From contig NC_057720.1 of assembly GCF_004010195.1 (NCBI RefSeq), forward strand, positions 81,668,301 to 81,732,300: DNA of 64,000 nucleotides, in the 5' to 3' direction. The translations under genes were made by a program, and so were the position numbers. Source of the stretch: Chiloscyllium plagiosum. Its lineage: Eukaryota. The notes below the pieces were generated by a model. The model did no database searches and was not told where the DNA came from. It saw nothing but the letters and a program-made list of their open reading frames with translations. Position 1 is the stretch's first letter. Every line of letters starts with the position of its first letter. This document shows positions 5,380-59,799 of this stretch, piece by piece.

Positions 5380-5585
5380 TTACTGTTCCTGAGGCTGTCT
5401 GGTCCCACGGCGCCTTCTGACCCAAATGGAGACTGTGCTGTGCCTTAGCATCAGGCTGTTCACCTCACTGAAGCTCAGATCTTCAACACTTTCTCCATTC
5501 ACCTCCAGAATCTCATCGCCCACTTCCAGCAATCCGGCGTACAGTTGCTCCGCATTCCGGTCTGCCATCTGGTGAATGATTATAC
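5380..5585 (-). CDS. KIAA1614: Terminal exon encoding the C-terminal part of a PDZ domain, KIAA1614-like (GIIIHQMADRNAEQLYAGLLEVGDEILEVNGESVEDLSFSEVNSLMLRHSTVSIWVRRRR...*)
   Basis: Acceptor ttcctccttcctctag|GT (phase 1). PDZ motif GLL.VGDEILEVNG; the MAD....LY.GLL segment resembles the KIAA1614 C-terminal PDZ rather than PARD6. KIAA1614 and RNASEL are both on human 1q25.3. Upstream exons were not found. Confidence 0.72.
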
Positions 5586-6725: not shown

Positions 6726-9397
6726 GCAATTTAGCATGGCCAATTCACCTGACCTGCACATTTTTGGACTGTGGGAGGAGACCAACACAGACACGGGGAG
6801 AATGTACAAACTCCAAACAGTCGCCCAAGGCTGGGATCGAACCTGGGTCCCTGGTGCTATGAGGCAACAGTGCTAACCACTGAGCCACCATGCCACCATG
6901 TTCAATTCAACATGGTTCCTAAAGTCTGTCCATGGTGGACATTGGGTGAGCTGGCATGGAGAGTATAAGGCAAAGAGTGGTGGGTGGATACACACACAAG
7001 TTTTGCATTAATTGGCATGGATGGGGCATGGTGAGTAAGTGAGGGCATGACAGGGTGAGGCATCTGAGGGATAACCGTTTCATGCAAAGGGCAGTGCGTG
7101 TATGGAATGACCTGCCAGAGGAATTGATAGAGGTGGGTAAAGTTACACTAAAAAGATATTAGGACAGGTACATGAACAGGAAAGGTTTAGAGGGGTATAT
7201 GGGCCAAATGCAAGTAAATGGGACTAGTTCAGTTTAGCATTCCTGGTCAGCATGGAGAAGTTGGATTGAAGGGTCTGTTTCCGTGCTGTGTGGTTCTATG
7301 ACTCTATGAATAAGGGCCAGAAGACCTGATATTGAACAAAATACTTTCAACAAAGTCTGACATGTACCAAGTCGGGCCTTTTAATCACCACTCCATCCCC
7401 GACAAACACCCCCATACCCTTCTGCCTGACTCCATCCTATAACCCACTTCCTCTCCCAGAGAGAGGACCTTGCCATTTGGGTGAGTTTCTCGTGTGGTTA
7501 GTCAGGAGGTTTCCCATCGTGAGCTTACCAGCCTTGCTGGCAAAAATCAGGCCAAAGTTTATTTACTAATCTGCATCGCTTGGAGTGGGTGCTGTTTGGT
7601 AGATGTGCTTGAAATGGACAGTGATAATGGGTATAACAATGTAATGAGAGCCTGGTGGGGAAGAACAAATCTAAATGGAAACAGGGTTGCAAGGGTACGC
7701 GAAAAGATCTTGTGGCACATCCCTACCTCTAGGCCAGAAACCAGGGGTTCGTGCTTTAGCTTAGGACCGGTTGTTTGTAATGTAACCCCTGGAACAGGGT
7801 GACTAAGTAGCCCCAATACCCCCCCGGAGGCAGGCAGTAAGAGTGAGAGAGTCTCCAGGTCAGCTGACCTGCAGGAGGCAGTGACAAATCCTTCAGGGTG
7901 GATCAATCTGGTGGCCTAACCCTGGAAATAAGGACAGGTCGACAAGGAGAAGGATAGATTGCTCATACTGAAGTCACAGAGGTCTACAGCATGGGTGCAG
8001 CCCTTTTGGCCCAACCTGTCCATGCAGCCCAGTTTTCACAATTAACCTAGTCCCATTTGCCTGCAGTTGGTCCACATCCCTCCATACCTAGCCCATCCAT
8101 GTACCTGTCCAAATGTTTCTTAAACGACAAAATTGTACTTGCCTCCACCACTACCTCTGGCAGCCCGTTGCGGACTCCCACCACCCTGTGTGTGAAACAA
8201 GTGCCCCTCTGGATCCTTTTGTATCTCTCCCCTCGCACCTTAAACCTCTAGTTTTAGCCTCCTCTACCATGGAGAAGAGCTGTTGGCTATCTCCTTACCT
8301 ATGCCTCTCATGATTTTATAGACCTCTACAAGGTCGCCCCTCAGACTCCTACACTCAGGGAGATCAGACCAAAGGGGCCCTACCCACTGAATGTGGGGGT
8401 GTAGGAGATGGCAGAAATCAGACCATGTATCCAGGGACTGATAGACACTGGAGGGTGGGAATGATGTGTGTGTGCCACCAGCATAACTAGGGAGTCTGAG
8501 GGACTGGGGCCCTCAGTCCCAAATCTCCCCAGAGTGTTCTCCCTCACAACCTCGAGTGTGTATGTCCCGAATGGACTAGAGGGGCTGAGTGACCTTCCCT
8601 ATCCCTCTTTCCTGATGAAGGGCTCAGGCCCGAAATGTCGATTCTCCTGCTCCTCGGATGCTACCAGACCTGCTGTGCTTTTCCAGCAACACACCCTCGA
8701 CTCTGATCTCCAGCATCTGCAGACCTCACTATTTCTTTCCCTGTCTCTCTGTTCAAAGGTGCGCATGATTTCCCAGTGAGGTTACAGCGATGGAATGGGA
8801 TCCAATTCCACCCCCACCCCCTCCAAAGCCTCCTCTCCATCCCCCAACCCCACACTACCACCCCCCAACACACACACACACACACACAGACAAATACCAA
8901 GCCATTCACAGCTCCTATAACCAGGGAGTCCTCAGACAGTCAGGAGGGATGGAACTGCAGTACTCACGGCCACTCAATCTGGAGATGTGAAACCCAAACA
9001 GCGCCCCCGCTGGTTTGGAGAGTTCAAGCACGAAGCTGGCATCAGCAAATGTCTGCGTCACTTGGCCAACCAGCCTTGGGCGTCTGGGTGGGGCAAGATC
9101 TCCTCCACGGAGAGCCGTCCCTGGGCTGCAGCGAGTCTGGGCCTCACTGTCAACAGGAAATGGAAGACTTCTGAACAAAGCACACACACAGTCCGTCACC
9201 ACCTCAATGTCCTGGTGGGGGGGGGAGATACACCTCCCCCCCCACCCAACACTGCAACAGCCTGTTGTCAGACAGACCCACCCAACGGTGCCAATTCTAC
9301 AGCACTGGGACCCACAGCAGCACATCTGTGGCACGCCCAGTCACACTGGACAGTGAAGAAGGTTATCTCAGAGTACAACAGGACCATGATCAGATGG

Positions 9398-9897
9398 NNN
9401 NNNNNNNNNNNNNNNNNNNNNNNNNNNNNNNNNNNNNNNNNNNNNNNNNNNNNNNNNNNNNNNNNNNNNNNNNNNNNNNNNNNNNNNNNNNNNNNNNNNN
9501 NNNNNNNNNNNNNNNNNNNNNNNNNNNNNNNNNNNNNNNNNNNNNNNNNNNNNNNNNNNNNNNNNNNNNNNNNNNNNNNNNNNNNNNNNNNNNNNNNNNN
9601 NNNNNNNNNNNNNNNNNNNNNNNNNNNNNNNNNNNNNNNNNNNNNNNNNNNNNNNNNNNNNNNNNNNNNNNNNNNNNNNNNNNNNNNNNNNNNNNNNNNN
9701 NNNNNNNNNNNNNNNNNNNNNNNNNNNNNNNNNNNNNNNNNNNNNNNNNNNNNNNNNNNNNNNNNNNNNNNNNNNNNNNNNNNNNNNNNNNNNNNNNNNN
9801 NNNNNNNNNNNNNNNNNNNNNNNNNNNNNNNNNNNNNNNNNNNNNNNNNNNNNNNNNNNNNNNNNNNNNNNNNNNNNNNNNNNNNNNNNNNNNNNNN
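9398..9897. other. Assembly gap of exactly 500 N (probable scaffold join of unknown size)
   Basis: Round length; both flanks end in CR1 sequence of opposite orientation. Other gaps are 1374-2148 (775 N) and 25546-25808 (263 N). Confidence 0.9.
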
Positions 9898-9929
9898 GTC
9901 CAGTGGGTTCAGTGTTCCAGGGGTTTGGG

Positions 9930-16582: not shown

Positions 16583-16911
16583 GCCGTGAGAACTCTCAGC
16601 CCAAGCTGACCCTGCTGCCCCCCTCCCCGGAGCAGGTCAATGCCAAGGGCACTGCCACCCTGGTGTGCCTTGCCAATCACTTCTATCCCGATGAGCTGGA
16701 GGTGCAGTGGAAGAAGGATGGTGCAGTCATTTCGGACGGGGTTCAGACCAGCAACTACCTGCGAGCTTCGGACAGCACCTACAGTGTCAGCAGCCTGCTG
16801 ACCCTCTCTGGGTCTGACTGGGAGTCCAACGCTCGCTTCTCCTGTGCCCTCACCCACGTGACCCTCTCCTCTCCCCTCAGCAAGAGCATCAGGAGATCAG
16901 AATGTGTGTAG
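16583..16911 (+). CDS. IGKC: Immunoglobulin light chain constant exon, shark kappa type (type III / NS4-like): RENSQPKLTLLPPSPEQVNAKGTATLVCLANHFYPDELEVQWKKDG...STYSVSSLLTLSGSDWESNARFSCALTH...RSECV*
   Basis: Acceptor tttctcttgtctttcag|GC at 16582/16583 is phase 1, as for J-C joins. C1-set hallmarks are present: ATLVCL, FYP, W, YSVSS.L, FSC.LTH and the penultimate Cys for H-L pairing. Isotype is assigned from remembered similarity to elasmobranch kappa C sequences. Confidence 0.93.
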
Positions 16912-17159
16912 AGTGTTTGAGACAGTCCACAGAGGAGATACAACTTTAAATAGAACAGGGCTGAGCTGGCAGGACAAAGGTCATTGTCAGAACTGAATTT
17001 CAACTCTCTTCCTTCTCAGGACTACTCGGAAAAACTTCTGAAGTTCAGGAGTTAAGGCAGTTCATTGGGACAGTGTAGAGAGAGCTTTATCCTGTGTGAA
17101 ACCTCATGCTGGCCTTGTCCTGGGAATGTTTGATGGGTCACGGTTAACTTGTGATGCCA

Positions 17160-17438
17160 AATAAAATCTTTCGAAGATGCTGAAGACTGTCAGCTGTACA
17201 AAACAATGTGAACCTCAGAAATCCCTGCTTCAGTAAACCAGATCTCCTTCCTGTTCAGTTGCCAGTTCCAATTTAAGGTTTTTATCACTGTTTCAAGGGA
17301 CAGGATTTTCATATTATTGAGAAAATCTCCACAAGTGTTTTCCTCAAGCTCCATTGTGGCTGTGAATTTGAGCCACTTCCTCTGAATGGCTGTTAATTTT
17401 AGTGTTTATTCTCCCAATTTCAATGAAAACGGAATAAA
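17160..17438 (+). terminator. Candidate poly(A) signals of the C-kappa transcript (AATAAA at 17160-17165 and 17433-17438)
   Basis: Two AATAAA hexamers downstream of the stop. The second is followed by a T/GT-rich tract (tttctgtgtgatttgg). Confidence 0.55.
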
Positions 17439-18172
17439 GATGAAGAAGATTCAGTCTCTATTTCTGTGTGATTTGGAAATGGACCCCTCCTTTCAGCTGA
17501 TTGAATGCATTTCAGCATAGCATTGTCACAATTGGCTGTTTGGTCTGTCAATCAGTAAGACATCAGTTGTAGTATGGACTGACAGCTAATCATCAATCGT
17601 TTTCAAATGATCCCTTTGATATGGAAACTGTGGAGGTTACAAATTTCCAAAAGAACAAAAACTGAAAGCTGTTGCGACTCAGTAATTACAATCTGAGGCA
17701 TTCCCTCTTCACTCTTTTGATCCAGGCAGAGTTGCTGGGACAATACTGTGCACTCTCTGCTGCATGCTGGATGTTACCTGTAATGATCTTAGGTCAGTCA
17801 CTGAGAATGGAGGCTCTGTGTCTCTCTGAGTGGACAACGGTAACCCCATAAACTGGGATTAAAAAAGGTGCATTTGCTATCGTATAACAGGGCACCCACT
17901 CAGTAGGTGGGTTCTGCTGAAGCCACAGCTAAATAATAAGAGACTGGATGGTTAATAAAGGGAACTGTAAATAGGATAACTGTAAATTCGAGTAATTCAA
18001 TCTGTTCTTTGTAATGTTAAGACATGCAATGTATATATCTATGAATGACATGACAAATTGTACAAGTACCAAAGATTTATTTCTATGAATAAAGTATATT
18101 TTGAAATAAAAAAAGTATTACATAATCCTGCCTGAGGTGTCATTCTGAGTGTTGTTCAGAGACACCGACATG

Positions 18173-18730
18173 CACTGAGTAACATGTTCACACTCAGAGA
18201 GACACCTACAGGCAGCACTGAGTAACACGCTCACACTCAGAGAGACACCTACAGGCAGCACTGAGTAACACGCTCACACTCAGAGAGACACCTACAGGCA
18301 GCACTGAGTAACACGCTCACACTCAGAGAGACACCTACAGGCAGCATGGAGTGTGAGCATGTTACTCAGTGCTCGAGAGTATGGTGCTGGCCGAAAAGCA
18401 CAGCAGGTCAAGCAGCAACTGAGGAGCAGGAGAATCGATGACTTCATCAGAAAAGTTCCTTCATCAGGAAGCCCGAAGCATTGATTTTGCTGCCGCTCGG
18501 ATGCTGCCTGACCTGCTGTGCTTTTCCAGTACCACACTCTCAACTCTTAAGCTCCAGCATCTGCAGTCCTCACTTTCGCCTTGTTACTCAGTGCTGTCTA
18601 GCTCTCTGAGTGTGTATGTTACTTAATGTTGCCTGTAGATACCTTTCTGAGTGTGTGTTATTCTGTACTGCCTGTCAGTATCTCATTGAGTGTGAGTGTG
18701 TTACTCTGTGCTACGTGTAGTGTCTCTGAG
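18173..18730. repeat. 43-bp minisatellite (4 direct copies, 18173-18344) followed by degenerate inverted copies, with a short element inserted in the inverted arm
   Basis: Unit CACTGAGTAACACGCTCACACTCAGAGAGACACCTACAGGCAG starts at 18173, 18216, 18259 and 18302. Reverse-complement units lie at 18350-18373 and 18581-18730. Confidence 0.9.
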
Positions 18731-18907
18731 GTATTTGTCTCTTCATGATGGATAGAGAATGGGCTTTGTAATGGGGATAGAAGATTTGGCTTTAATCTTC
18801 TCAAATCAGGAATGAAAAACAGTTCAGTCTGAGATGGTGCCTCAGTGAGATGGCCAAAGTTAAAAATCACACAACAGGTGTGTTATAGTCCAACAGGTTT
18901 CTTTGGA

Positions 18908-18945
18908 AGGACAAGCTTTCGGAGCACTGCTCCTTCATCAGGCAG
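18908..18945 (-). ncRNA. Minimal hammerhead ribozyme motif, GAAAGCT-type family
   Basis: Minus strand reads c-CTGATGA-a-GGAGC-agt-GCTCC-GAAAG-CTT-gt. A related copy lies on + at ~29843-29877 (cac-CTGAAGA...GAAAG-CTA-gtg). Confidence 0.55.
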
Positions 18946-19889
18946 CTAGTGGGGCAGGATCATAGTTCACAGAATTTACAGTGAAATTGAGATGGCAACT
19001 GAGAAAGGTGAATACTGAGAGTGTGTTCTCAGTAACGGAGGGATTTCAGAGGCAGTGGGCACTGTGTTCCCTAATGTGCTCCCCAGTTACAAGGGGACTT
19101 TCTGGATCCAGGGTCATTGCAGTCGTGGCTGCCTACTCAACCAGTACTGGCTGGCCATAGTCATATTTCAATGGTCAATTAGCCCTAAACTAGGTGCAGC
19201 AATATTACCTGACTGGAAGGGGAAGCTGTATGAATGAGGGAGGTTGAATTCTTGCAGGTCCAAGAGGGATTGCAGTAGATTAATGAAGGGTACTACCACC
19301 ATGAAGGTGTCACCTTCTCTCCCCCTGCCTCAGCTGTGGTGACCCTTGGGTTAAACTCACCACCAGTTAGCTCTGTCTGTAATGAGCAAATGGGACTATG
19401 TTCCTCTGGGGTTAGATTAGATTAGGTTAGATTAGATTAGATTACCTACAGTGTGGAAACAGGCCTTTCAGCCCAACCAATCCACACCAATCCTCCAAAG
19501 AGTAACCCACCCAGACCCATTTCCCTCTGACTAATGCACCTATCACTATGGGCATTTTAGCATGGCCAATTCACCTGACTTGCACATCTTTGGGCTGTGG
19601 GAGGAAACCGGAGCACCCGGAGGAAACCCAGGCAGACACAGGGAGAATGTGCAAACTCCACACAGACAGTCGCCTGAGGCTGGAATCGAACCTGGCAACC
19701 TGGCGCTGTGAGGCAGCAGTGCTAGCAGGGATAATGACCACTTTCTTAAGTGATGGAGGGAAGGTCAACCTCTCCCAAAGGCAGCACGAGCTGGATCAAA
19801 GGGGCATCAAGAGTAAGCATGGGGAGATTGAGGGTGACAGAAGGAGGGGGTTGGTTGGCAGGTTGTTATTCAGGAAGAAAGGAAACATC

Positions 19890-20770
19890 CAAGTGGCCAG
19901 TGCTAAGCAGTGCCCTTCACATCAGAGTGCAATACTATGTGATCAAACAGTGAAGGGGAGGGCAGGGATTAAATCAAAATAGAGTTGGGACACTCCCCTT
20001 TTTTTCTGGTATCCTGTCACTAATTCACCCTTTATTACACATGGAGAGTCTTTGACACTGATCCAGCTCCCTCAGAGCCAACTCTCAGAGTGAACAGAAC
20101 CCGTGACAGTCCTGCTTATCTTTTTTTTTAACAGACCCACTGACATTCCTGTTTATTATTTTCTTCCCCCTTTTTACCCCCACACTACCGCCTAACTGCA
20201 GTAGTGCTTATTTTTTCCCCAGCCCCCATGTTGTGTGTCTGCAGGTGTGAGACACAGTGAGAGACACAAGGTCCACGAATCTTTATTCAGTTTCCACCAC
20301 CAGGAAGACAGGAAAACACCCGGGTGGCCAGTGACAAGCAGTGCCCTTCACATCAAAGGGCAATACTGTGTGATCAAACAGTGAAGGGCACAGCAGGAGT
20401 TAAATCAGAATAGAATCGGAGGGGGAAATAAAACATTCCATGCCTCGCAGTGCTCACCTCTACCTCCTGTGTATTTTCTCTTTTTTTTTCTTCTTTTGCC
20501 CTTACACTCCTTTTTTCTTTTTATCCCCACACTACCACCTAAGTGCAGTAGTGCTTATTTTTTCCCCAGCACCCATGGTGTGTGTGTGCAGGTGTGAGAC
20601 AGTGAAAGACACAAAGTGCACGAATCTTTATTCAAATTCCACCACCAGGAAGACACACCCGAGTGGCCAGTGACAAGCAGTGCCCTTCACATCAAAGGGT
20701 AATGCTGTGTGATCAAACAGTGAAGGGGAGGGCAGGGATTAAATCAAAATAGAGTTGGAAACACTCCCCT
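19890..20770. repeat. Three clustered copies of a ~100-260 bp element end
   Basis: GTGGCCAGTG..AAGCAGTGCCCTTCACATCA...GATCAAACAGTGAAGGG...TAAATCA.AATAGA at ~19893, 20325 and 20663. Confidence 0.85.
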
Positions 20771-22943
20771 TTTTATCTGTCAGACGGGGATCCCTGATTG
20801 GACAAAGTTAACAGGCCCCATCAGCAAACTCATATTTTATCAGAAAGAATTAACACATATCAAACAAGGAGCGCAAGAGCTAAAGGACACTGAACAATAT
20901 GAATCATTTGAAAGATTTCTTTACGAACATTGCAAATGAGATTTGGGAAAGAACATTTTTCACTCAGAGGGTGGTGGGAATCTGGAATGGATTGTCATAG
21001 AATCCCAACAGTGTGGAAACAGGCCATTTGGTGCAACAAGTCCAGACCAATCCTCCAAAGAGAAATTCACCAAGATCCATTCCCCTAGGCTATTTCCCCT
21101 GACTAATGCACCTAACTGACACATCCCTGAACAGTATGGACAATTTTAGCATGGCCAATTCACCTAACCTGCACATCTTTGGATTGTGGGAGGAAACTGG
21201 AGCACGCAGAGGAAACCCACACAGACACGGGGAGAACGTGCAAACTCCCAGGTCGATTCAACCGGGGCTTGAATCGACCTGGGTCCCTAGTGCTGTGAGG
21301 CAGCTGTGCTAACCACTGAACCACCATGCCACCCATAAAAAAGCCCAAAGAATTGAGCTTTTGTTAAGTTCCACCAGCCTGACATGATACAAACTATAAA
21401 CTTGCAACCCTCTATCAGGGAAGGTAGTGGAGGGTGGAAACCTTACAAACTTTGAATATCATAACATTCATGGATTTGGGACAACGGCAGGAAATTGGGA
21501 TTAGAGTGCCTTCAGTGGTAGTTATGTTGGTGCAGACTCAATGGGCTAAAGGGCCTTTTCTGTGCTGTATCAATCTATGCTCCATGCTGAGAGGGCAGTT
21601 CAGGTTAATGGTGACTAGGTTCAGCTGTCGAAGGTGGCAAATACATGATCACGGTCAGAGGAAATGGCTCAAGCTTCAGCGAAGGCCCAAGTAGGTGCTT
21701 GGAAGAAGGGTCAAGGCTAATGGAGGCAAGGTCAATGGAAACTAAGCGAGAGCACAAGGTGCTGGCTGGCATCTCCAGAGGCATGCAGGAACAAGAGGGG
21801 AGTGTGTAGGGAGGGAGTGCAGTTTCACATGAAATGTGAGCTTTGCCAGCAGCAGCATGACCTTCAGCACCAGAGAATGTCCCTAACTACTCTCTGTGTG
21901 ATCCCACACAGCCACCCGTCTGGTCACCACGCAAGGTCTTGCTCATGTCTATAGTACCATCTACAACACTGTCTGCACCCAGTATCTGCACCTTCTGTCT
22001 ACACCACTGTCTGTACATACCGTCTGCACCCTCCGTTTACACCCCGTGTTCACACCCATTGTCTACACCGCTGTCTGCACCCTCCATCTACTCCTCCTAA
22101 CTTTCTGCTGTTGTAAGATTGCATCTAATGATTCCATTGAGATTACTTCAACAGAAGCCTGAATTTTAGAAGCGGCAATGATTGTCTTACAACCCTGACC
22201 TTCAAAGTCTGGGCTGATTAATATTAATTACTGAATGCCATTTGATTTCTGTGATGGCAGGACTGACGTATAAGGAGAGGTTGAGTTGGTGAGGATTGTG
22301 TTCACTGGAGTTTAGAAGAATGAAGGAAGGGAATCTTGGAGGAAGCTATAAAATTGGAACAGGACGAGACAAATTAGATGGAGGATGTTCCCGATTGTGG
22401 GGAAGTCCAGAACCAGGGCTCATAGTTTAAGGTTAAGGGATAAACTCTATAGGACAGAGATGAGGAAAAATGTTTTCACCCAGAGAGTGGTGAGCCTGTG
22501 GAATTCTGTCAGAAAGTGGTTGAGGCCAAAACATTACGTTTTCAAACAGGAGGTAGATATAGCCCTTGTGGCTAAAGAATCAAAGGATATGGGGTAGGGA
22601 GGGATTACAGTATTGTGTTCGATGCTCAGCTATGAACATAGATTTTTGATGACTGAAGGGATGAAACATTATCAGAGAATGTAGAGTTGAGGTTTAAATC
22701 AGATCCATCACGATCTTATTGAATGGGGAGCAGGTTCAATGAACTGAGTGGCCTACCTTTGCTCCTTACCCATATGTTGCCTCATACACCTTTGCACGAT
22801 CAGAGACTGTCGTTCATATTTTCTACCTGCAGATTAAGCTGCTTGTGCAATAGGCCTCATCTGTACAGTGTTTTCTCCAGCCTTTCACCTGGACAAGTTA
22901 AAGATAATGGTCCCATAATAAGTCCATTAACTTTGTAAGTTAG

Positions 22944-22949
22944 TTTATT
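22944..22949 (-). terminator. Candidate RNASEL poly(A) signal
   Basis: TTTATT on + (AATAAA on -) about 1.06 kb past the RNASEL stop. Confidence 0.4.
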
Positions 22950-23004
22950 TGAAGCAATAAAACACATTACAAGTCGTGAAGCAGACATTGCAGCAAGCAA
23001 TAAT

Positions 23005-23910
23005 GGGTGGCACAGAGGCTCAGTGGTTAGCACTACTGCCTCACAGCGCCAGGGACCCAGGTTCGATTCCAGCCTTGGAAAACTGTCTGTTTGAAGTTTG
23101 CACATTCTCCCCGTGTCTGTGCGGGTTTCCTCTGGGTGCTCCAGTTTCTTCTCAAGTCCAAAGATGTGCAGATTAGGTGAATTGGCCAAACTAAATTGCC
23201 CATGGTGTTCAGGGATGTGTGGGTTAGGTGCAGTAGTCAGGGAATATGTAGAGTAATGGGGTGGGTGAGTGGGATGCTCTTCGGAGGGTCAGTGTGGCCT
23301 TGTTGGGCCATGTGGCCTGTTTCCACATTGTAGGGATTCTGTGAATTGATCTCGGTCTATGCAGTTTGCAGGCTCACAGATGACTAACTGCAATACTGTA
23401 CATACATAGGGGTGGATTTTCTTCAAGGCAATGAACATCAAGGGGGGATAGTTATGTTCTCCCTTGATGGAGACAGTCATTGCCTCGCAGTTGTGTGGCA
23501 AAAATGTAACCTTGTTCATGTTCCAAGCCTACATCTCTGGCAGTAAAATGCTTTGGAACATCCTCAGGTGACAAAAAAGTGCTATACTTTTGGGGTGGCA
23601 TGATGGCTCAGTGGTTGGCACTGCTGCCTCACAGCACCAGGGACCCGCCTCAGGCAGGTCTGTGTGGAGTCTGCACATTCTCCCTGTGTCTGCGTGGGCT
23701 TCTCCTGGGTGCTCTGGTTTCCTCCCACAGTCCAAAGATCTGCAGACTCAATAAATTGGCCATGCTAAATTGCCCACAGTGTCCAGGGATATGCAGGCTA
23801 GGTGGATTAGCCATTGAAAAATACAGGGATAGAATAGGAGGCTGGGTGGAAGGGCGGTGTGGATTTGATGGGCTGAATGGCCTACTTCCACACTATCGGG
23901 ATTCGTGATA
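23005..23910 (+). mobile_element. Two HE1-like SINEs (23005-23345, 23594-23910) in the presumptive RNASEL 3' UTR, antisense to the mRNA
   Basis: Each has a tRNA-like head and V-domain. Confidence 0.9.
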
Positions 23911-24008
23911 CAAATGCAAGTTCCTTCTTTCCATTCTTGCCCTGAAGCATGTGGTTCTGTCTCATATCCACTCAAGAGATGGCAACCCTTTGAAGACAGG
24001 AGCAGCCT

Positions 24009-24129
24009 CTATTCTTTTGGAAAGTACTTCTTCCACTCTGTGTCCTTCACAGCCTTGTAGACAGCAACAATGAGATCGGGAAATAACCCAAAGCTATAAT
24101 CTTCTGGACTCTTCATTAAACTGTGGAAC
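24009..24129 (-). CDS. RNASEL: RNASEL terminal coding exon (FHSLMKSPEDYSFGLFPDLIVAVYKAVKDTEWKKYFPKE*)
   Basis: Read manually. Acceptor tacttttcag|G, TAG at 24011-24009. Matches the human FPDLVIYVY...EYRKHF segment. Confidence 0.92.
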
Positions 24130-27100: not shown

Positions 27101-30100
27101 AAAGAAAGTGACGAGTGGTGTTCCACAAGGATTCTGTGGTGAGGCCTTAACTAATTACTGTATGTATTAATGAGAATCATAGTTCCACATTAACATAAAG
27201 ACTGATGGAATAGTAAGCAGTGCAGATGGTCTTTTTGTTTAAAACTCACTCCGAGCACATGGGTTTTGCTGTCTTGGCCAGCATTTATTACACATTCCCA
27301 GTTTCCCTTGAGAATCATGGAATCATTAGACAGTGCGGAAGCAGACCATTCAGCCCAACAAGTTCACACCAACCCACCGAAAAGCATCCCATCTGGACTG
27401 ACCCCCTCCCTGTAATATTGCACTTCCCACCCAGTCTGCACATCCCTCGACACGACACACAATTTAGTTTGGCTAATCCACCTAATCTGCACATCTATGG
27501 ACTGTGTGGAGGAAACCCACACAGACATGGGGAAAATGTGCAAACTCCACACAGACAGTGTTCCCAGGGTGGAATTGAACTCAAGTCCCTGGTGCTGTGA
27601 GGTAGCAGCACGAACCACTGAGCCACAATGCTGCCCTTTGCAAAGTGGTGGTGAGCTGCAGTTCATTTGCTGGAGATAAACCCACAATGCCCTAAGGGAG
27701 GTAAGTCCAGGATTTTGACCCAGATGCTATATGGATTGGAGGGGAACTTGTAGTTAGTGGTGTTCTGTGTATCTGCTGCCCTTGTCCTTCTCGATGGAAA
27801 TGGTCGTGGGTTTGGAAGGTGCTGTCTCAGGAGATTTGGTGGATTTCTGCAGTGCATCTTGTAGATGGTGCACAGAGCTGTTACTGAGCATCAGTGGTGG
27901 AGGGAGTGAATGTTTGTCGATGTGGTGCCAATCAAGCAGGCTGCTTTGTACTGGATGATATCAAGCTTCTTGTCCGTTTTTGGAGCTGCACCCTCCAGGC
28001 ATGTGGGGAGTAACCCATCACAGTCCTATCCAAAACTTGACTGATCTTTTTTTAATTCATTTACAGGATTGGGCATCTCCTGGTATGCCAGCATTTACTG
28101 CCCAGAATCAAGTGGGGTGGCACAATGGCCAGCACTGTTGTCTCACAGCACAGGGACCAAGGTTTAATTCCACCCTTGGGCAACTGACTGTGTGGAGTTT
28201 GCACGTTCTCCCTGTGCCTGCCTGGGTTCCCTCCCGGTGATCTGGTTTCCTCCCACAGTCCACAAATGTGCGGGTTAGGTGGAATGGCCATGGGAAATGC
28301 AAGGTTATAGGGGAGTGGGTCTGGGTGAGATGCTCTTTGGAGAGGCGGTTTGGGCTGAATGGCCTGTTTCCACATTGTAGGGATTCTATGAATTTCTTCA
28401 CTCAGAGGGTTTTGAATCTTTGGGATACTCATCCCCAGAGGATTATCGATACTTAGGCATTTGAATAAATTCAAGATAGAGATCATCCACATGTGGGGAG
28501 GCAATAGCCTCGTGGTAACATCACGAGATTCTTAATCCAGAGAGCCCAGTAATGTTCTGGGGGACCTGGGTTCAAATCCTGGCAAGGCACAGAGTGGAAT
28601 TTAAATTGAAAAGAAAACTCTGGAATTCAGAGTCTAATGATGACCATTGTTGGAGGAGAACCCCATCGGGCCCACTAACGTACTTTAGATTGTTGTCCTT
28701 GCCCAAACTAACCAACATATCACTCCAGACCCACAGCAACGTAGAATCATTGAATCCCCACTGTGTGGAAGAAGGCCATTCAGCCCATCAAGTCCAAGCA
28801 GCATCTCACCCAGAACCACCCCCCTCTCCTATCCCTGTAACCCTACACTCCTCATAGCCAATCCACCTAACCTGCACATCTTTGGACTGAGAGTGGAAAC
28901 AGGAGCACCCAGAGGAAACCCACACAGACACAGGGAGAATATGCAAACTCCACAAAGACGCCTGAGGGTGGAATTGAACCCAGGTCTCTGGCGCTGTAAG
29001 GCAGTGGTGCTAGCCACTGTGCCACCCATTCCTCATCTCTGATCTAAATGTCTAACTGCTTATTCCCAGACTGGGACTCTGCCCTGGAATCCCCATTTCA
29101 AGGCACATCCTTCCAAAATCTCCCCTGTCAGGGCCCTGGATAATTTGAAATGTTTCAGTGAAATCTCCTCCAACCTTCTAAATTCCAGGGATGAGATCTG
29201 CAATCTCCTCCTGGCTTCCTAGAGAATCTGGGAATGAAGGAAGTGAGGTCTGCAGATGCTGGAGATCAGAGCTGAAAATGTGTTGCTGGAGAAGCGCAGC
29301 AGGTCAGGCAGCATCCAGGGAACAGGAGAATCGACGTTTCGGGCATAAGCCCTGAAGAAGGGCTTATGCCCGAAACGTCGATTCTCCTGTTCCCTGGATG
29401 CTGCCTGACCTGCTGCGCTTCTCCAGCAACACATTTCCAATCTGGGAATGAATCCCATTCCTGACCCAGTCCCCTCTCCCTATCATTAGACAATCCCCTC
29501 AACCCATCACATGAACTGTCGCTGGGTTTGATCATCTCAGTAAGAGTTTCAAGACGGGAAGGAGAAAGAAAGACTCTTTCTGCTTTGAATTGATGCTAAA
29601 AACTGAAAAAAAGCAGGAAAATATTGTCACCAAGTATTGATAACATACTCTTTCTTTTCATCAAAGTGCTGGATGAGGTTTCTTATGAATTTCAGGAGGT
29701 CACTAGTGGTGTCCTTATATTCTTTATTCTTGCCTTGTCTCTTGTTCATGTCATTGAGGAGAACAGAGTCAACCTAGAAAGAAATGAACAGCAGAGTTTG
29801 TTTTCTCTATTGATTAAATTCACCTTGCTTACTCCTCTGATCACCTGAAGAAAGGGCGAGGCTCTGAAAGCTAGTGTTTTCTAATAAACCTGTTGCACTA
29901 GAACCTGGTGTCACATGATTTTTGACCTTGTCCTCTGATCACATTCAGGTTGTGCCCACGGGCACTGCATGTTCTTGCTTCTCCAGGCCAGCAAGTGGCG
30001 ATCTTGACAATGGATTTCACAATGGTCTCCGTCAGAAAGGACCCACAAATCAGGGACAGAGACCAGAGATAACAGGCTCCTCAGTCCCAGACCCGAGCAC

Positions 30101-33100
30101 AACGGGCCCCCTGGCATCCCAGGTACCGCTTGTTGCGTCCCGGACCCTGTACATAATGCAAATGGTGCGACTGATCTTTCTGATTTTTCTCCAACCTCAC
30201 CAGGTCTCCACAGTCACTGAGAGTATTTAAATGACAAAGCCTTTAGCTGCCTTTGCCAGTTAGAGACCGTAATTGATGGGAAACAGACTGAAATGGGTCA
30301 ATAAGATTTGGGAGTTACAGACACAGATTACGAAGTGGAAATCTGATGTTATGGCTCTGACAGAGACCGGGTGGGACTGGGTATTCCTGGATACAAGGTG
30401 TTCAGTAAAGATAGGAAAGTGGGAAAATTGAGAGAAGTGGTACGATTGGTGAAGGAAGTCAGTGCAGAGCTGGAGGAAGAGAGTGTCTCAGAGGGGTCAC
30501 GGCTTGGCTTGAGATAAGGAACAAAAATGGTGCAATCAGATTGTTCAGAGCAGACTACAGGTCACCAATCAGTGGGAAGGATGGATAGGAACAAACTTAC
30601 AAGGAACTTACAGAGAAGTGTAAACATGATAGTGTCGTTATAGTGGGGGAAACTTAAATTATCTGAATATAGACTGGGATAGTAGCAATGAAGGACAGAC
30701 AGGGGCAAGTCTGATCTTAGAGTAGGATAAAAGGCCAGCACAACATCGCGAGCCAAAGGGCCTGTACCATGCTGTACTGTTCAATGTTCTATTTTCATTC
30801 CAAGCTTGTATTGAAGGCATGCAGGACAAGAGTTTGTGCTCGGTCTGAATCTTGGTAATGAGTTAGGCCAAGTAGATCAAGTGTCATGGGAAGTATTTGT
30901 AGAACAGTGATCATTGTATTGTAATATTTAGGAAAATGATTTTTTTTTTAAAAAGAACAAAAGCACAGCCCAGAGTGAGAATAATTAACTGAGAGAGAAC
31001 TGATATCAACAAAACAAGAGCAGAGCTGGATTGAATAGACTGGATCCGAAGACTGGCAAGAAAACCAGCAGCTGAGCAATGGGTTACCTTCAAAGTACAG
31101 CTGGGTAGGGGGACAGTTGTAGGTTAGGTGGATTAGCCATGGGAAATCTGGGATTGGCAGGGGGTGTGGAGTTGGGTGAATTGCCTTTTAGAAGGATGAT
31201 ACCTACTCCCTGGGCTGAATGGCCTCTTTCTACACTGGAGGGATTCTACACTTCAATGCCTAACATCAGTCTGCTCACCTGCAGTGAATGATCTAGCATC
31301 TGTTTCACAGAGGGATTTTAGAACTGATAGAACCTAAAGCATGTGGCATTGAACCCACAATAGATGTAAACCAGAAGCCAGCATCAGAAAGCTCAGAGAA
31401 ATGGTATTATTGCAGGTCGGAAGGTGTACCTTCTCTGTCCACTTGTGAAATGATCTTTCCTGATCCTCTCCGGTCTTATTCAGGATCTGGACAATCTGAC
31501 TGTCATGATTCCGTTTGACCACATCCTTCTCATTGGCGAGACTTTGGATCAACTGGGCCTTGCTGGAGGGGAAATGGAAAGGTGATTAATGCAAAGCAAC
31601 CTCGGTCACACAGAACTGCAGCCACTGTAATGTCCTGTGTCACATGCAGAATGTTCATACAATAGGAAACTGATTGATCAGATTCATTTTCGTTCCCAAA
31701 ATACCTTCATGGGTAAGGAAAGTACAGTTTAATAAAAACTAATCCCCGGTAATGGTACAGACACAGAGGAGAGGAAGGTATCAACTGGACACAATAAAAT
31801 GTGTAAGGGATTGATAGCCGAGTTTTTGACTCTGGCTCTGTAAAGCATGGTGGGGTATTTTCTAAGCTTAAATCTCCATTCTCGAAATGTATTTGTGTGT
31901 TCTGTGTATCTGGGTTTTATAGAAACATACATAGCAACATAGAAGATAGGATTAGAAGGAGGCCAGTCGGCCCTTTGAACCTGCTCCATCATTCGTCACG
32001 ATCATGGCTGATCATCCAACCCAATAGCTAATCCTGCTTTCTCCTTAACCTTTGATCCCATTCGCCCCAAGTGCTAAACCCAACCACCTCTTGAATACAT
32101 TCAATGTTTTGGCATCAACTACTTCCTGTGGTAATGTATTCCACAGGCACATCACTCTTTGGTGAAGAAATGTCTCCTCACCTCTGTACTAAATGGACTA
32201 CCCTGAATCCTCTGACTATGAACCCTAGTTCTGGACACACCCACCATCGGGAGCATCCTCCCTGTATCTACATTGTCTAGCTCTGTTAGAATTTTATAGG
32301 TCTCTCTGAGATCCACCCTCGTTTGTCTGAACTCCAGCGAAAGCAATCCTAACCCAGTCAATCTCTCCTCATACGTCAGTCCCCACCATCTCCGGAATCA
32401 GTTTGGTAACCCTTCACTGCACTCCCTTGAGAGCAAGAGCATCTTCCCTCTGAAAAGGAGACCACAACTGCACACAATACTCCAGGTGTGGGCTGTATTT
32501 TGTGTACATATTTATGTTTTGTGTGTATTTGTGGTTCTGTGTATATTTCTGTCTATTTATGTGGATATGTGTGTATGTGTTCTGTGTGTATTCTTGAGTT
32601 CTGTGCAGATTTGTGTAAATCCGTGTGCCCTGTGTTTATCTGTGTGGATGTTTCCTTGGTTGAATCATTATGTCAGGTAACGGATAGCCAGCTCTGTTGC
32701 TGTTTAATCATCGTCCATTGCTCATTTTTGACTCACTTGCCAAGTTTAGTCTCAATAGAAATACATCAGATATTTTCACATTAAATGGCTTAAATCACAT
32801 AGAACACCAGCTCTTTAAAATCCTGAAATGAAGGTCTACCACAGACCCGGCATACAGTCATAGAGATGTACAGCACGGAAACAGACTCTTCGGTCCAACT
32901 CGTCCATGCCGACCAGATATCCTAAATTAATCTAGTCCCATTTGCCAGCAGATGGCCCATATCCCTCTGAACCCTTCCTATTCATATACCCATCCAGACG
33001 ACTTTTAAGTGTTGTGACTGTACCAGCCTCCGCCATTTCCTCTGACAGCTCATTTCATGCATGTGAAAAAGTTGCCCCTTAGGTCCTTTTTAAATCTTTC

Positions 33101-36100: not shown

Positions 36101-39100
36101 GGATTACACCAGGACTGCTTGAAGAGACAAATCCTTCACTCAGAGTCATAGAGCACAGAAACAGACCCCTCAGTCAGACCAGACCATGCCAAACTAAACT
36201 ACTCCCACCTGCCTGTGCTCGGCCCATACCCCTCCATATATTTCTTATCCGTGTCCTTAATCTGTTTTAACTGTACCTGCATACACCACTTCCTCTGGAA
36301 GTTCATTCCACACACGACCCACTCTCTATGTAAAGAGGTTGCACCTCATGACCCTTTTAAATTTTTCTCCTCTCTCCTTAAAAATAAGCTCCCCAGTCTT
36401 GAAAGTTCCCACTTGATTTTATAAACCTCAATAAGTCAATCTCCTGTACTTCTCCACACATAAGGATGTCTATAAACACCAGTCTTTCTTAACATTCTCC
36501 AAAGACTTACTCCAGATCTTTCCACAGTAGTGGATGGTGCTCAATCTCAGTGAGTGTCGCTCTCTGCTCTGCTGGTGCTAACAGGCACTCCACAAAATCT
36601 CTGGCTTCAGCATTCTTCAGGTCACAAAGACTGTCATCGAAAGAGGGGTTATTCTCAAGTTCATCCTCCTTACTCCTGTAGACGTCCTTCCCACCAGATA
36701 TGACAAAGTGTAAGAGGCGTCCTAGTGCCTGTCTCATAAACAGAACAACTTTAATGGAAAAAATACACTGTCGGGCCCTGGCTTCACAAACATACCACGC
36801 AGGTAACATTTTAGAAATTAATCTATTTTGATTGATTTCTAAACAAAGCTTTTCAATGCACTCAGGTACATGTGACAATAAATCAAATCAAAATTCTCTC
36901 AAATTTTTGGTTCGAAATTTTTGGTGAGCATCCAATATTCTCTCGAGTTCAGTATCATTCCTTGTAAATGGAGCCTCCTGGGCCCAATGCCCAGGAGGTT
37001 GCCTTTCCTGCCCTATATCTGGTGATGTAATCAGGGAGGACTGCTGTAATTGTGAGCCGAATCCTGCACTGTGATTCCACACATGCCCTCATGTACTGCT
37101 CCCTGAAAGTGACCCTACCCTGTTCCTTCATGGCAGGACGCTGAGGCTGATTGCGGAGTACAATCCATGACCACTGCTGTTAGGATCTACAAATTCAGTG
37201 ATGGAGCCAGCTATCCTCCGAGATCGATATAAAAACAAAATTTGCGAGAGAAACTCAGCGGGTCTGGTAGCATTTCTGGAGAAAGAAATACAGAGTTTTC
37301 ACTCTTCTTTGAAAGTTACATCCTTCAGAAACTCAGTTCTGAAGAAGAGTCCTACAAGACTCGAGACATTAATTCTCTTTCCCCCTCCACAGATGCTGCC
37401 AGACCTGCTGAGTTTCTCCAGCATTTTTTTGTTTTCATTTCAAATTTTCATCATCTGCAGAATTTTGCTTTACCCTCCCAGGCCACATGACTCTGTTCCA
37501 AAAAGTTAGCTGCCGGAAAACTATGGGAGGAAACCCTCGCAGACATGGGGAGAATATGCAAACTCCACACAGACAGTCACCCGAGGCTGGAATCGAACCT
37601 GGGTGCCTGGCGCTGTGAGGCAGCAGTGCTAACCACTGAGCCACCTGCTACAAATTTCACTGAGATGTGGGGCTGCAGAGGCTTAGTGGTGTTACTAATC
37701 GAGTAACAGACCCAAGTAATGCTTGGAGGAGCATTTGGAGACTCTGGGTCTATATTCAAGAGTTTAGAAAGATGAGGAGGAACCTTTTTGAAACTCATTG
37801 CTACAGAGGGCTGTGGAGGCCAAGTCACTGACTGTATTTAAGACACGTTCTTGATTGGTAAGGGGATCATGGGTTACAGGAAGGATACAGGAAAATGGGA
37901 TTGAGAAAAACATATCAGCCTGTGGAGCAGACGCACTGAGCCAAAATGGCCTAATTCTGCTCCTATATCTTATGTCCTGGGTTCGAATCCCACCACGGAA
38001 TTTGAATTCAATAAAAATCTGGAATTAAGAGTCTATTGATGACCATGAGTCTGTTTCCCATTGTCAGGAAAAACCCATCTGGTTCGCTAATATCCTTTCG
38101 GGAAGGAGAGCTGCCATCCTTACCCAGTCTGGCCTATTTGTGATTCCAGAGCCACAACAATGTGGCAATCCCTCTCAAAAATGGTGGAGCAAGAGATTCC
38201 ATTGTGGCAATCGCTAGAAAGGAGAAAAGGAATGGAAATGGATGGGCCACCAATTCAGGAACCAGAAACAACATGGATTACAGCGGTTCAGGAAGGCAGC
38301 TGAACACCGCCTTTTCAAGGGGTGATGAGGAGTGAGTAATAAACGCAGTGATGCCCATGTGCAACAATTGAATTTTAAAAAAAGTTCAGCTTCTTCCCTC
38401 TGTCTCAACAGCTTTGAAAACTGAACTTAGCATTATCTGGCCAAATCCATTACCAATGCCTGATTTACCCAGTCTCCCTTTGATTCGTCCAGACACTTAA
38501 ATCTCATCCCTCAAGAGAGAAAACAAGTCACCACATGTGGACCTGCACATCTGCTTTGAACAGCTCATCCTCGGTAAACGTTGCCTTTGGCAAATGTTCC
38601 AGTTTCTGCAGGATTTCTGAGGCTTCCCAGGTTCCAGGGCAAATCGGCATAGTTGGGTTCTTATCAAAATGCACACTCTTATCGAAATCTGCCAGGCGAA
38701 AATTTTCTTCAACATCTGGAGAAAATCAAACCATTTTATTGCTCATATCTCACACACAGCAAAAAGGCTCCAAATCAGTTTTAAACATATCCTTCCATAA
38801 ATCCATTCACTTTCAAACATAATTTGGAATTCTTGGTGTTTCAAATTCATCCATTCCACACAGGTCAGAGTTCCAGTGGCCTTACACTGAGTGGTGGTTT
38901 CATGTTGACAGTTTTCAGGGTTTAAGAAGCTGAGTAAACCCATGAGGGAGTAAGGGATAGATGGTGTTGCTGATGTTGAGATGAAGTAGGGTGGGAGCAG
39001 GTTGTTTGAAGTCTGAACTCTAGCCTCTAACGTGACCCAGTTGGGCGCAATGATCTGTACCTGAGCTGTGTGTTGTGCTATTGTAAGAGGTGGTGAACTG

Positions 39101-45100: not shown

Positions 45101-45112
45101 TTGTCCTGCCAT
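24009..45112 (-). CDS. RNASEL: Ribonuclease L (2-5A-dependent RNase; ankyrin repeats + pseudokinase + KEN RNase). Six coding exons: 45112-43444, 38715-38543, 36728-36511, 31562-31430, 29773-29649, 24129-24009; 2439 nt = 812 aa + stop
   Basis: Exons were joined manually. All have AG/GT ends and matching phases (1,0,2,0,2), giving an uninterrupted frame. Diagnostic RNase L motifs: WSPLLNAVQ, RKKNGASPFIVAA, GFTAFMEAAQYG, GKTPLILAVEKK, EVAVK, LADFDKS, HPLLW, SFHKWTEK, DLLKFIRNLIQH, FPDLIVAVY. Confidence 0.95.
24450..27220. mobile_element. Cluster of CR1 fragments in RNASEL intron 5 (24450-25260 -, 25260-25545 +, 26250-27220 + highly degenerate)
   Basis: RLGLFSLE..RLRGDLIEVYK and LQYCVQLWS motifs. 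Confidence 0.8.
29239..29438. mobile_element. Short palindromic non-autonomous element (Penelope-derived/MITE-like) with 14-bp target duplication
   Basis: Inverted arms surround CTGAAGA-a-GGGC-ttat-GCCC-GAAAC-GTC. Flanked by AATCTGGGAATGAA at 29225-29238 and 29439-29452. Confidence 0.8.
29649..29773 (-). CDS. RNASEL: RNASEL coding exon 5 (VDSVLLNDMNK...YKDTTSDLLKFIRNLIQHFDEKK), catalytic KEN core
   Basis: Not in the ORF track; read manually. Acceptor tttctttctag|GTT and donor GA|gtatgt. Contains DLLKFIRN..H with the catalytic His. Confidence 0.93.
31430..31562 (-). CDS. RNASEL: RNASEL coding exon 4 (KAQLIQSLANEKDV...SFHKWTEK), start of the KEN domain
   Basis: Acceptor tttcccctccag|C and donor AAG|gtacac. 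Matches the human VGNESDI...SFDKWTTK segment. Confidence 0.92.
32855..33540 (-). mobile_element. CR1 LINE 3' fragment
   Basis: LYRTLVRPLLEYCVQF motif and typical 3' tail. Another fragment lies at 31920-32490(-). Confidence 0.88.
33845..34625 (+). mobile_element. CR1 LINE 3' fragment
   Basis: QMEFNSDKCEVL.FG motif and CTCTATGACTCTATG tail. Confidence 0.88.
34640..35260. mobile_element. Penelope-like element, 5'-truncated with inverted pseudo-LTR (large fold-back)
   Basis: 34650-34960 is the reverse complement of roughly 34960-35220. It contains the GIY-YIG C-terminal remnant (WHSN....NKHI.LD.I) and hammerhead cores at ~35146-35187 (+) and ~34678-34718 (-). Confidence 0.8.
35280..35515 (+). 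mobile_element. DeuSINE (AmnSINE/SacSINE-like) central domain
   Basis: Deu-domain signature CCTGGCCA.TATT..TCCCTCAA.CAACATCA...GATTATC.GGTCATT...GTTTGTGGGATCTTGCTGTG. Other remnants at ~12950-13130, 13880-14020, 40860-41030(-) and 52645-52800(-). Confidence 0.7.
36511..36728 (-). CDS. RNASEL: RNASEL coding exon 3 (ALGRLLHFVISGG...EARDFVECLL...HPLLWKDL)
   Basis: Lies within ORF 36507-36878. Acceptor gacag|GCA and donor GA|gtaagt. Encodes the kinase C-lobe. Confidence 0.93.
37230..37470. mobile_element. Related fold-back short element (CACAGATGCTGCCAGACCTGCTGAG family)
   Basis: Inverted arms surround TTCTGAAGAAGAGTC...GACTCGA. Relatives at ~4290-4470, 41915-42020 and 45670-45880. Confidence 0.6.
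38543..38715 (-). CDS. RNASEL: RNASEL coding exon 2 (DVEENFRLADFDKSVHF...PGTWEASE...FKADVQ)
   Basis: Acceptor ttttctccag|AT completes the Asp codon. Contains the DFD motif. The phase-0 donor CAG|gtccac is weak but is the only one compatible with the next exon. Confidence 0.88.
39955..40370 (+). mobile_element. Penelope-like element 3' end with short inverted 5' arm
   Basis: ORF 39975-40196 (ILGQAKQRNAREFLEAWHSNHNAINKHID) is the C-terminus of a PLE GIY-YIG endonuclease. 39958-40000 is inverted relative to 40285-40330. Confidence 0.85.
40252..40291 (+). ncRNA. Minimal type I hammerhead ribozyme motif in a Penelope terminal repeat
   Basis: cca-CTGATGA-t-GTTACC-aagcca-GGTAAT-GAAAC-GTC-tgg, directly downstream of a GIY-YIG coding remnant. 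Confidence 0.7.
42610..43175 (+). mobile_element. Tx1/L1-like LINE 3' end
   Basis: YGLF.GTH.ET...C.WRTINSVKDALWSA.N motif, then AATAAA and an A tail. Same family at 63666-64000(-); tail only at ~18000-18115(+). Confidence 0.8.
43444..45112 (-). CDS. RNASEL: RNASEL coding exon 1 (ankyrin-repeat domain and N-lobe of the pseudokinase)
   Basis: Lies within ORF 43430-45202. ATG at 45112 has good Kozak context (gagaATGG) and is preceded by a polypyrimidine tract plus AG acceptor at 45139-45138. Donor is AGAG|gtaaca at 43444/43443 (phase 1). Confidence 0.95.
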
Positions 45113-59680: not shown

Positions 59681-59799
59681 GTTGATCTTGTGGCAGGGCT
59701 TAGCCCTTGCATTCTGGTTTTCTTTGTTTTATTTTTGCATGGGTGTTTTCACTTTTTTGGTGTTCGACTGAGTCCCCTGTGAGATAATGCACCTTTCCA

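What the first reader, a model, noticed from the sequence alone, without database searches (positions are those of the whole stretch)
16583..24129. Ig kappa constant exon tail-to-tail with RNASEL, gap-free, in a region matching human 1q25
Seen: the C-kappa stop (16911, +) and the RNASEL stop (24009, -) are ~7.1 kb apart on the same ungapped contig (9898-25545), and a KIAA1614-like exon lies further left. Established: RNASEL and KIAA1614 are both on human 1q25.3, part of an MHC-paralogous region, whereas tetrapod IGK lies elsewhere; shark Ig genes are dispersed miniloci. Inference: this is either a transposed kappa cluster or a relic of ancient linkage of antigen-receptor genes with an MHC paralogon. 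It juxtaposes an adaptive and an innate antiviral gene that could share enhancers.
Basis: partly seen in the sequence, partly recalled or inferred. Interest (0 to 1): 0.75.

Follow-up and report, generated by a model that had tools for sequence, protein, structure and literature searches.

The report
Shark kappa antibody locus beside RNASEL
In bamboo sharks an antibody kappa light-chain gene ends 7 kb from the antiviral RNase L gene, and in several shark orders the kappa genes share a chromosome with RNase L, a different address from that in bony vertebrates, most likely from an old relocation rather than a functional partnership.

Summary
Observation confirmed. An intact shark type III/NS4 (kappa) C exon (16583-16911, +) and the last exon of an intact 869-aa RNASEL (24129-24009, -) lie 7.1 kb apart, tail to tail, with no gap. 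It is not a misjoin or a private insertion. Kappa and RNASEL proteins map to chromosomes of identical length in 3 of 3 testable sharks (bamboo shark, horn shark, catshark). Other light chains do so in 0 of 8 species. A C. punctatum kappa model also splices into sequence matching this RNASEL intron. All placed kappa models of a species share one chromosome, so this is probably the edge of the main kappa array. V and J are absent; they probably lie in the 500-N gap, which also cuts the KIAA1614-like gene. The chromosome is size-compatible with MHC paralogon 1. An ancient proto-MHC relic is not supported: tetrapod and lungfish kappa have other neighbours (gar's chromosome was not matched), while lambda keeps its neighbours from chimaera to tetrapods. 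No enhancer signature was found between the genes. Most likely an old relocation of kappa followed by tandem expansion. I found no report of it in ten searches, but three key papers were unavailable.

The parts
16583..16911 (+). Ig light-chain kappa (type III/NS4) constant exon; intact ORF, phase-1 acceptor, C-terminal Cys
17160..17165 (+). first AATAAA after the kappa stop (candidate poly(A) signal, about 250 nt of 3' UTR)
   Evidence: function inferred
16858..16859 (+). cryptic GT donor inside the C exon, at the point where C. punctatum model P0132 leaves the C domain
   Evidence: predicted model only
16912..24008 (.). ungapped 7.1-kb interval; 43% matches repeats elsewhere in the window, all short and diverged (at most 92% identity over 100 bp or more)
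22944..22949 (-). candidate RNASEL poly(A) signal, 12 bp from a + strand AATAAA at 22956
   Evidence: inferred
24009..24129 (-). RNASEL last coding exon with stop
29649..29773 (-). RNASEL exon 6, KEN/RNase domain with the conserved His
29949..30301 (+). RNASEL intron stretch matching the aberrant tail of C. punctatum kappa model P0132 (84% over 81 aa, plus two shorter pieces); not repeated elsewhere in the window
31430..31562 (-). RNASEL exon 5
36511..36728 (-). RNASEL exon 4
38543..38715 (-). RNASEL exon 3
43444..45133 (-). RNASEL large exon: ankyrin repeats and start of the kinase-like domain
49715..49864 (-). RNASEL upstream exon as in the C. punctatum isoform X2 model
9398..9897 (.). 500-N gap; must hide or replace the 5' part of the KIAA1614-like gene and probably the kappa V-J
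   Evidence: inference
8968..9146 (-). penultimate exon of a DUF4685+PDZ (KIAA1614-type) gene
5380..5585 (-). last exon (PDZ) of the same gene, ending in a stop

Best explanation
This is the RNASEL-proximal end of the shark kappa light-chain locus, a tandem array of V-J-C miniclusters on one chromosome. The C exon is the constant part of one cluster (class shown). Its V and J are in or beyond the 500-N gap, because the near-identical array failed to assemble (inferred). It should work like any shark kappa cluster: RAG joins V to J within the cluster, the J splices to this exon, and the transcript ends near 17160 (established mechanism for the family, not shown here). RNASEL is an ordinary interferon-pathway gene transcribed towards it and ending about 6 kb short. 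The neighbourhood arose when a kappa cluster moved into a block matching human 1q25, before bamboo, horn and catshark lineages split, and was then amplified and homogenised in place (inferred). The two genes are neighbours by history and are probably not co-regulated.
For: Same chromosome length for kappa and RNASEL rows in C. punctatum (135,915,806; 7 of 7 chromosome-placed kappa rows), Heterodontus (137,194,213; 3 of 3) and S. torazame (323,493,442; 3 of 3). Control: non-kappa light-chain rows are on the RNASEL chromosome in 0 of 8 species having both. Kappa rows also share a single chromosome in Cetorhinus (5 of 5) and Hemiscyllium (3 of 4; one on a 72-kb contig). The tail of P0132 matches an RNASEL intron in the same orientation. 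C copies group largely by species or family. Kappa has different neighbours in tetrapods (RPIA/EIF2AK3; PMC4762898 passages) and lungfish (chr7 near PSMB6, while MHCpara-1 is chr10; PMC10751288 supplement); gar kappa is on LG28/LG22 (PMC5985310 passages). Lambda keeps its MAPK1/GNAZ/MRPL40 neighbours in chimaera as in tetrapods.
Against: The direction of movement is not polarised: sharks may hold the old position, with bony vertebrates having moved. Only 3 of 12 chromosome-placed chondrichthyan RNASEL rows had a kappa row to compare; no kappa row came up for Carcharodon, Mustelus, S. canicula or Heptranchias, nor for five rays. P0132 is an automated model, and its matching stretch could be a repeat rare enough to occur once in 64 kb. 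V and J were not seen, so this exon could be an orphan.
Confidence: 0.7

Rival explanations
1. Relic: the kappa locus has sat on the huchr1 MHC paralogon since the genome duplications, so rearranging antigen-receptor genes descend from more than one proto-MHC copy, and bony vertebrates moved kappa away.
For: Sharks rearrange chromosomes slowly (recalled). RNASEL chromosome lengths are compatible with the published MHCpara-1 chromosomes in 3 of 3 species: Carcharodon 123.5 Mb lies between chr15 (137.5 Mb) and chr19 (>112.5 Mb); Pristis 144.7 Mb against a 150-Mb maximum, for chr3; S. canicula 244 Mb, between chr1 (313 Mb) and chr16 (145 Mb), for chr4. Bony-vertebrate kappa positions disagree with each other. 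A chimaera kappa exists (P0296).
Against: No bony vertebrate in the papers read has kappa by RNASEL; lungfish kappa is off MHCpara-1. Chimaera lambda sits among 22q11/12q24-type genes, not among 9q34-type genes, so kappa and lambda do not look like positional ohnologues (human band assignments recalled). The published model derives rearranging genes from para-9/12/14. Class I-like genes reached MHC paralogons by translocation (PMC9586880 passage).
Confidence: 0.13
2. Functional coupling: kappa and RNASEL share a 3' enhancer, or kappa read-through transcripts run antisense into RNASEL and tune it in B cells.
For: Tail-to-tail layout. P0132 predicts a splice from the C exon into an RNASEL intron on the antisense strand, and both splice sites exist in the window. 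Back-to-back poly(A) signals lie at 22944 and 22956. GAGGAA and MEF2-like motifs are in excess in the interval (12 vs 4.9 and 4 vs 0.6 expected).
Against: There are 0 octamer, EICE or ISRE motifs, and E-boxes are at chance level (11 vs 10.6). Several GAGGAA sites fall in the SINE-like repeats, and the four MEF2 hits are two sites counted on both strands. RNASEL has its own ISRE-like motifs at its 5' end. RNASEL sits beside Ig genes in no other vertebrate in the papers read.
Confidence: 0.1
3. Artefact or private event: a repeat-mediated misjoin, or a single recent transposed C exon.
For: Fragmented, gapped assembly; 43% of the interval is repetitive; no V or J nearby. The C exon may be a collapsed consensus of near-identical copies.
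Against: Repeats in the interval are short (dispersed copies about 400 bp or less) and at most 92% identical. Independent assemblies of three species put kappa and RNASEL on one chromosome, and P0132 supports close adjacency.
Confidence: 0.05

Closest known systems
Shark IgL kappa (nurse shark NS4, horned shark type III)
   Same: C domain 83-99% identical to named members (79-99% across all shark rows); same clade; same splice phase and C-terminal Cys (synonyms in PMC5985310 Table 2)
   Different: V, J and RSS are not in the window; the genomic address beside RNASEL is not given in the papers I could read
Elasmobranch antigen-receptor complex, AgRC (PMC12227049)
   Same: Clustered Ig miniloci on a chromosome tied to an MHC paralogon
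   Different: The AgRC holds IgH, TCR alpha/delta, UrIg2, PSMB5 and sigma-type IgL on Carcharodon chr27 and catshark chr17. No kappa row appears in the part of Table S1 read (part 1 of 2). The RNASEL chromosomes are different, larger ones.
Tetrapod IGK locus
   Same: Same isotype by V-domain tree of relatives (100/99)
   Different: Translocon flanked by RPIA/EIF2AK3, against miniclusters flanked by RNASEL and probably a KIAA1614-like gene
RNase L (RNASEL)
   Same: Ankyrin, kinase-like and KEN domains; best PDB match E 1.7e-124 for the 95%-identical C. punctatum protein; already reported in chimaera (PMC1845163)
   Different: About 30 extra residues, one more ankyrin-like repeat, in 10 of 10 chondrichthyan against 0 of 6 amniote sequences aligned

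Membership tests
Shark IgL kappa (type III/NS4) | C1-set constant domain, intact, with C-terminal Cys | tested here: met
Shark IgL kappa (type III/NS4) | C domain groups with NS4/type III, not with lambda or the other shark isotypes sampled | tested here: met
   starred sets 99/97, 98/87 and 97/93 among 71 rows; the C tree alone does not resolve the link to tetrapod kappa
Shark IgL kappa (type III/NS4) | V domains of this class group with bony-vertebrate kappa | tested here: met
   (100/99, 46 rows), on relatives only; the window has no V
Shark IgL kappa (type III/NS4) | V-J-C minicluster with 12/23 RSS | tested here: inconclusive
   No V or J by motif scan or by tblastn with 31 kappa chains; only 6.7 kb of ungapped sequence lies upstream
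Shark IgL kappa (type III/NS4) | Rearranged and expressed in B cells | not testable with these tools
   no reads available
RNase L | Ankyrin + kinase-like + KEN architecture in one intact ORF | tested here: met
RNase L | Catalytic His in the KEN domain | tested here: met
   His aligns with the mammalian His; its catalytic role is recalled
RNase L | 2-5A-activated RNA cleavage | not testable with these tools
   needs an assay
KIAA1614-type gene | DUF4685 plus a single C-terminal PDZ | tested here: inconclusive
   Closest homologues (72-81% over the exon) have this layout (7 of 8 scanned carry DUF4685); the window holds only the two PDZ exons. The name KIAA1614 for DUF4685 proteins is recalled.
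MHC paralogon 1 (huchr1) | Same chromosome as NOTCH2/PBX1/RXRG/BRDT | tested here: inconclusive
AgRC (huchr9/12/14 paralogon) | Linkage to IgH, TCR alpha/delta and PSMB5 | tested here: not met
   None seen in the window's ORFs or tblastn matches; the catshark RNASEL chromosome (244 Mb) is larger than its chr16 (145 Mb), so by size numbering it is not the AgRC chr17

The most novel reading that the evidence does not exclude
The shark kappa array marks the original post-duplication position of a rearranging light-chain gene on the huchr1 MHC paralogon, in the interval where mammals later carry MR1 (human order KIAA1614-STX6-MR1-...-RNASEL, recalled). Rearranging antigen receptors would then not all descend from the para-9/12/14 chromosome, as the current model holds. 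A lesser version: kappa read-through splices antisense into RNASEL in shark B cells.
Probability: 0.13. Interest if true: 0.8.

Novelty: new variant of a known kind. Interest (0 to 1): 0.42.

Why it matters
Two recent models of antigen-receptor origin (PMC10751288, PMC12227049) place rearranging Ig/TCR genes on the huchr9/12/14 paralogon, and the passages and tables I read give no position for shark kappa. A single, order-spanning kappa array on what is probably the huchr1 paralogon is a data point those models must absorb, either as an early translocation or as a counter-example. It can be tested at once with existing chimaera and squalomorph assemblies. It also suggests that shark kappa miniloci are clustered rather than scattered. 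The genes themselves are ordinary.

Tried and rejected
Search for V, J and RSS in the window: none convincing (8 weak RSS-like hits, none by a V or J). Accession numbers of the shark RNASEL clusters, wanted as a proxy for gene order: not obtainable, so distance along the chromosome stayed unchecked. Kappa and lambda as positional ohnologues on para-1 and para-9: rejected, because chimaera lambda is flanked by MAPK1, PPIL2, MRPL40, CDC45, SEPT5 and LZTR1 and lies about 19-20 Mb from C5 and PBX3. Enhancer motif scan: no B-cell or interferon signature in the interval. Rfam: 0 matches in 64 kb. Pfam on two frames of the P0132-matching intron: nothing above cut-off. Ray kappa: none among the best 120 of 475 rows, in line with 'ND' for skate; the Narcine 'kappa-like' row falls outside the kappa clade. 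Chromosome-length tables for catshark, white shark and sawfish: not found. Not held: Ohta 2019 (PMC6761025), Criscitiello and Flajnik 2007 (PMC7094790), Flajnik 2024 (PMC12010099); any of these may mention this location. The VGP Ig-locus table was not in the readable files and media-4.xlsx was too large to read. No fold or complex prediction was run, as neither bears on the question.

Full report
What is there. The window is from a bamboo shark: its RNASEL is 95% identical to, but not the same as, that of Chiloscyllium punctatum. It has three N runs: 1374-2148, 9398-9897 and 25546-25808. On the ungapped stretch 9898-25545 lie an Ig C1-set exon (16583-16911, +; acceptor, ORF and stop intact) and the last exon of RNASEL (24129-24009, -). 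Six more RNASEL exons follow to 49864. All junctions are GT-AG, and they give one 869-aa ORF that matches C. punctatum P0001 at 827 of 869 positions without gaps.

Class of the C exon. In a 71-row C-domain tree it nests in the shark type III/NS4 clade, with nurse, horn, basking and cat shark and dogfish chains and one chimaera chain. That tree does not resolve the link to tetrapod kappa. A 46-row V-domain tree of relatives does: type III V and bony-vertebrate kappa V form one side at 100/99. PMC5985310 (passages, Table 2) lists NS4/type III as kappa. No V or J is in the window by motif scan or by tblastn with all 31 kappa chains.

The left neighbour. Two minus-strand exons (9146-8968 and 5585-5380) splice in frame and end a PDZ domain with a stop. 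Their closest relatives are 1,090-1,321-aa proteins with DUF4685 and a C-terminal PDZ; that this is KIAA1614 is recalled. The first 1,200 residues of the best relative have no match in the window. That gene needs sequence to its right and the kappa gene needs sequence to its left, both at the 500-N gap. The simplest reading is that the gap stands for a much longer unassembled piece, so the KIAA1614 adjacency is weaker evidence than the RNASEL one.

Is the junction real? About 43% of the interval matches repeats elsewhere in the window, but dispersed copies are about 400 bp or less and at most 92% identical. For an independent test I used the contig-length column of the protein searches as a chromosome label. 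Kappa and RNASEL rows carry the same length in C. punctatum (135,915,806; 7 of 7 chromosome-placed kappa rows, two further rows being on draft scaffolds), Heterodontus francisci (137,194,213; 3 of 3) and Scyliorhinus torazame (323,493,442; 3 of 3). These were the only 3 of 12 chromosome-placed chondrichthyan RNASEL rows with a kappa row to compare. As a control, non-kappa light-chain rows differ from the RNASEL chromosome in 8 of 8 species with both. Kappa rows are also on one chromosome in Cetorhinus (5 of 5), Hemiscyllium (3 of 4) and Stegostoma (1 of 1). One C. punctatum kappa model, P0132, leaves the C exon at a cryptic donor and continues in sequence 84% identical over 81 residues to window 29946-30188, inside an RNASEL intron and in the same orientation. 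That stretch is not repeated in the window, though I could not test it genome-wide. So a second assembly most likely has a kappa C exon just 3' of RNASEL as well.

Gaps in that test. No kappa row was seen for Carcharodon, Mustelus, S. canicula or Heptranchias; they may be hidden as cluster members or unassembled. None was seen for five rays, which fits 'ND' for skate. Same chromosome is not same neighbourhood, and accession-level gene order could not be obtained.

Which chromosome. PMC10751288 (abstract, passages, supplement parts 91, 95 and 96 of 98, two supplement searches) puts the huchr1 MHC paralogon on white shark chr16, catshark chr4 and sawfish chr3. The RNASEL chromosomes (123.5, 244.3 and 144.7 Mb) fit those ranks given the sizes I could read, but this is compatibility, not proof. 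That human 1q25 belongs to this paralogon, and that MR1 lies between KIAA1614 and RNASEL, is recalled.

Relic or relocation. Tetrapod IGK is flanked by RPIA and EIF2AK3 (PMC4762898 passages). A lungfish kappa lies on chr7 near PSMB6, while lungfish MHCpara-1 is chr10. Gar kappa is on LG28 and LG22, and bowfin kappa on scaffold 11 (PMC8423624 legend); I did not test the homology of those chromosomes. Lambda, by contrast, has the same MAPK1/GNAZ/MRPL40 neighbours in chimaera as GNAZ and MRPL40 mark in tetrapods, and it lies about 19-20 Mb from the para-9 hallmarks C5 and PBX3 on that scaffold. Kappa is thus the mobile locus, and kappa and lambda are not evident positional ohnologues. PMC12227049 (passages, section 15, Table S1 part 1 of 2) and PMC10751288 derive rearranging genes from para-9/12/14, and what I read of them names no kappa position in sharks. 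PMC9586880 (passage) notes that class I-like genes in MHC paralogons are ascribed to translocation. The economical history is one old move into this block, then tandem growth; copies grouping by lineage fit that. The direction cannot be fixed without chimaera and squalomorph gene order.

Shared regulation. The interval has no octamer, EICE or ISRE motif, and E-boxes are at chance level. GAGGAA and MEF2-like counts exceed shuffles, but partly through SINE-like repeats and double-strand counting. Each gene has its own candidate poly(A) signal, about 5.8 kb apart. RNASEL has ISRE-like motifs at 49617 and 45222. The only hint of cross-talk is the predicted antisense splice in P0132.

Novelty. Ten paper searches (two of them for chromosome sizes) found no report of shark kappa beside RNASEL or on the huchr1 paralogon. 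Ohta 2019, Criscitiello and Flajnik 2007 and Flajnik 2024 were not held, and the Ig-locus table of PMC13320880 (passages and supplement search) could not be read; any of these may bear on the claim. Other papers seen as passages only: PMC1845163, PMC13450315 (not relevant), PMC11979771 and 10.1101/2022.05.20.492783. The loci are already annotated in public assemblies. Verdict: real and shared across three shark orders, made of ordinary genes at an address that seems undescribed; worth a short synteny study. Interest 0.42.

Noticed in passing
window 43444-45133 (-): Chondrichthyan RNase L has about 30 extra residues, one more ankyrin-like repeat, in 10 of 10 sequences including chimaera, against 0 of 6 amniotes aligned.
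   Followed up: partly
P0007, P0009: Pristiophorus japonicus has two RNASEL-like proteins, 85% identical: a probable duplication.
   Followed up: partly
window 49617 and 45222 (-): ISRE-like motifs just after RNASEL's first exon and just before its large exon; 2 ISRE-type hits against 0.41 expected in 45100-51000.
   Followed up: partly
window 22944-22961: Back-to-back AATAAA signals on opposite strands, 12 bp apart, about 1 kb past the RNASEL stop.
   Followed up: no
window 34641-35224: About 590-bp self-inverted element (81%) in an RNASEL intron, MITE-like, containing a 17-bp tandem repeat.
   Followed up: no
window 18156-18729: 43-bp unit repeated 4.1 times (98%), with a degenerate inverted counterpart on the far side of a small hairpin element.
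   Followed up: no
window 19882-20774: Three partial tandem copies of a roughly 345-bp repeat.
   Followed up: no
window 51000-52400 (-), 54100-62750: LINE remains: an L1-like ORF2 end (likeness recalled; no Pfam match) and several CR1-like copies, one with RVT_1 at 62016-62747. No host gene was seen right of RNASEL.
   Followed up: partly
P0294, P0295: Proteins 75-80% identical to shark kappa are deposited as Aeromonas veronii and Salmonella proteins on contigs under 1 kb: probably contamination.
   Followed up: no
P0320: The Narcine 'kappa light chain-like' model is not kappa; it groups with another shark light-chain clade. No ray kappa was found.
   Followed up: partly
P0139: A divergent C. 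punctatum kappa (81% C identity, long branch) on a draft scaffold; its position relative to the array is unknown.
   Followed up: no
NW_024704749.1:2.89-3.17 Mb (PMC10751288 supplement): The chimaera lambda cluster labelled MHCpara-14 sits among human 22q11-type genes, far from the para-9 hallmark genes, which weakens its use as evidence for para-9 linkage.
   Followed up: partly
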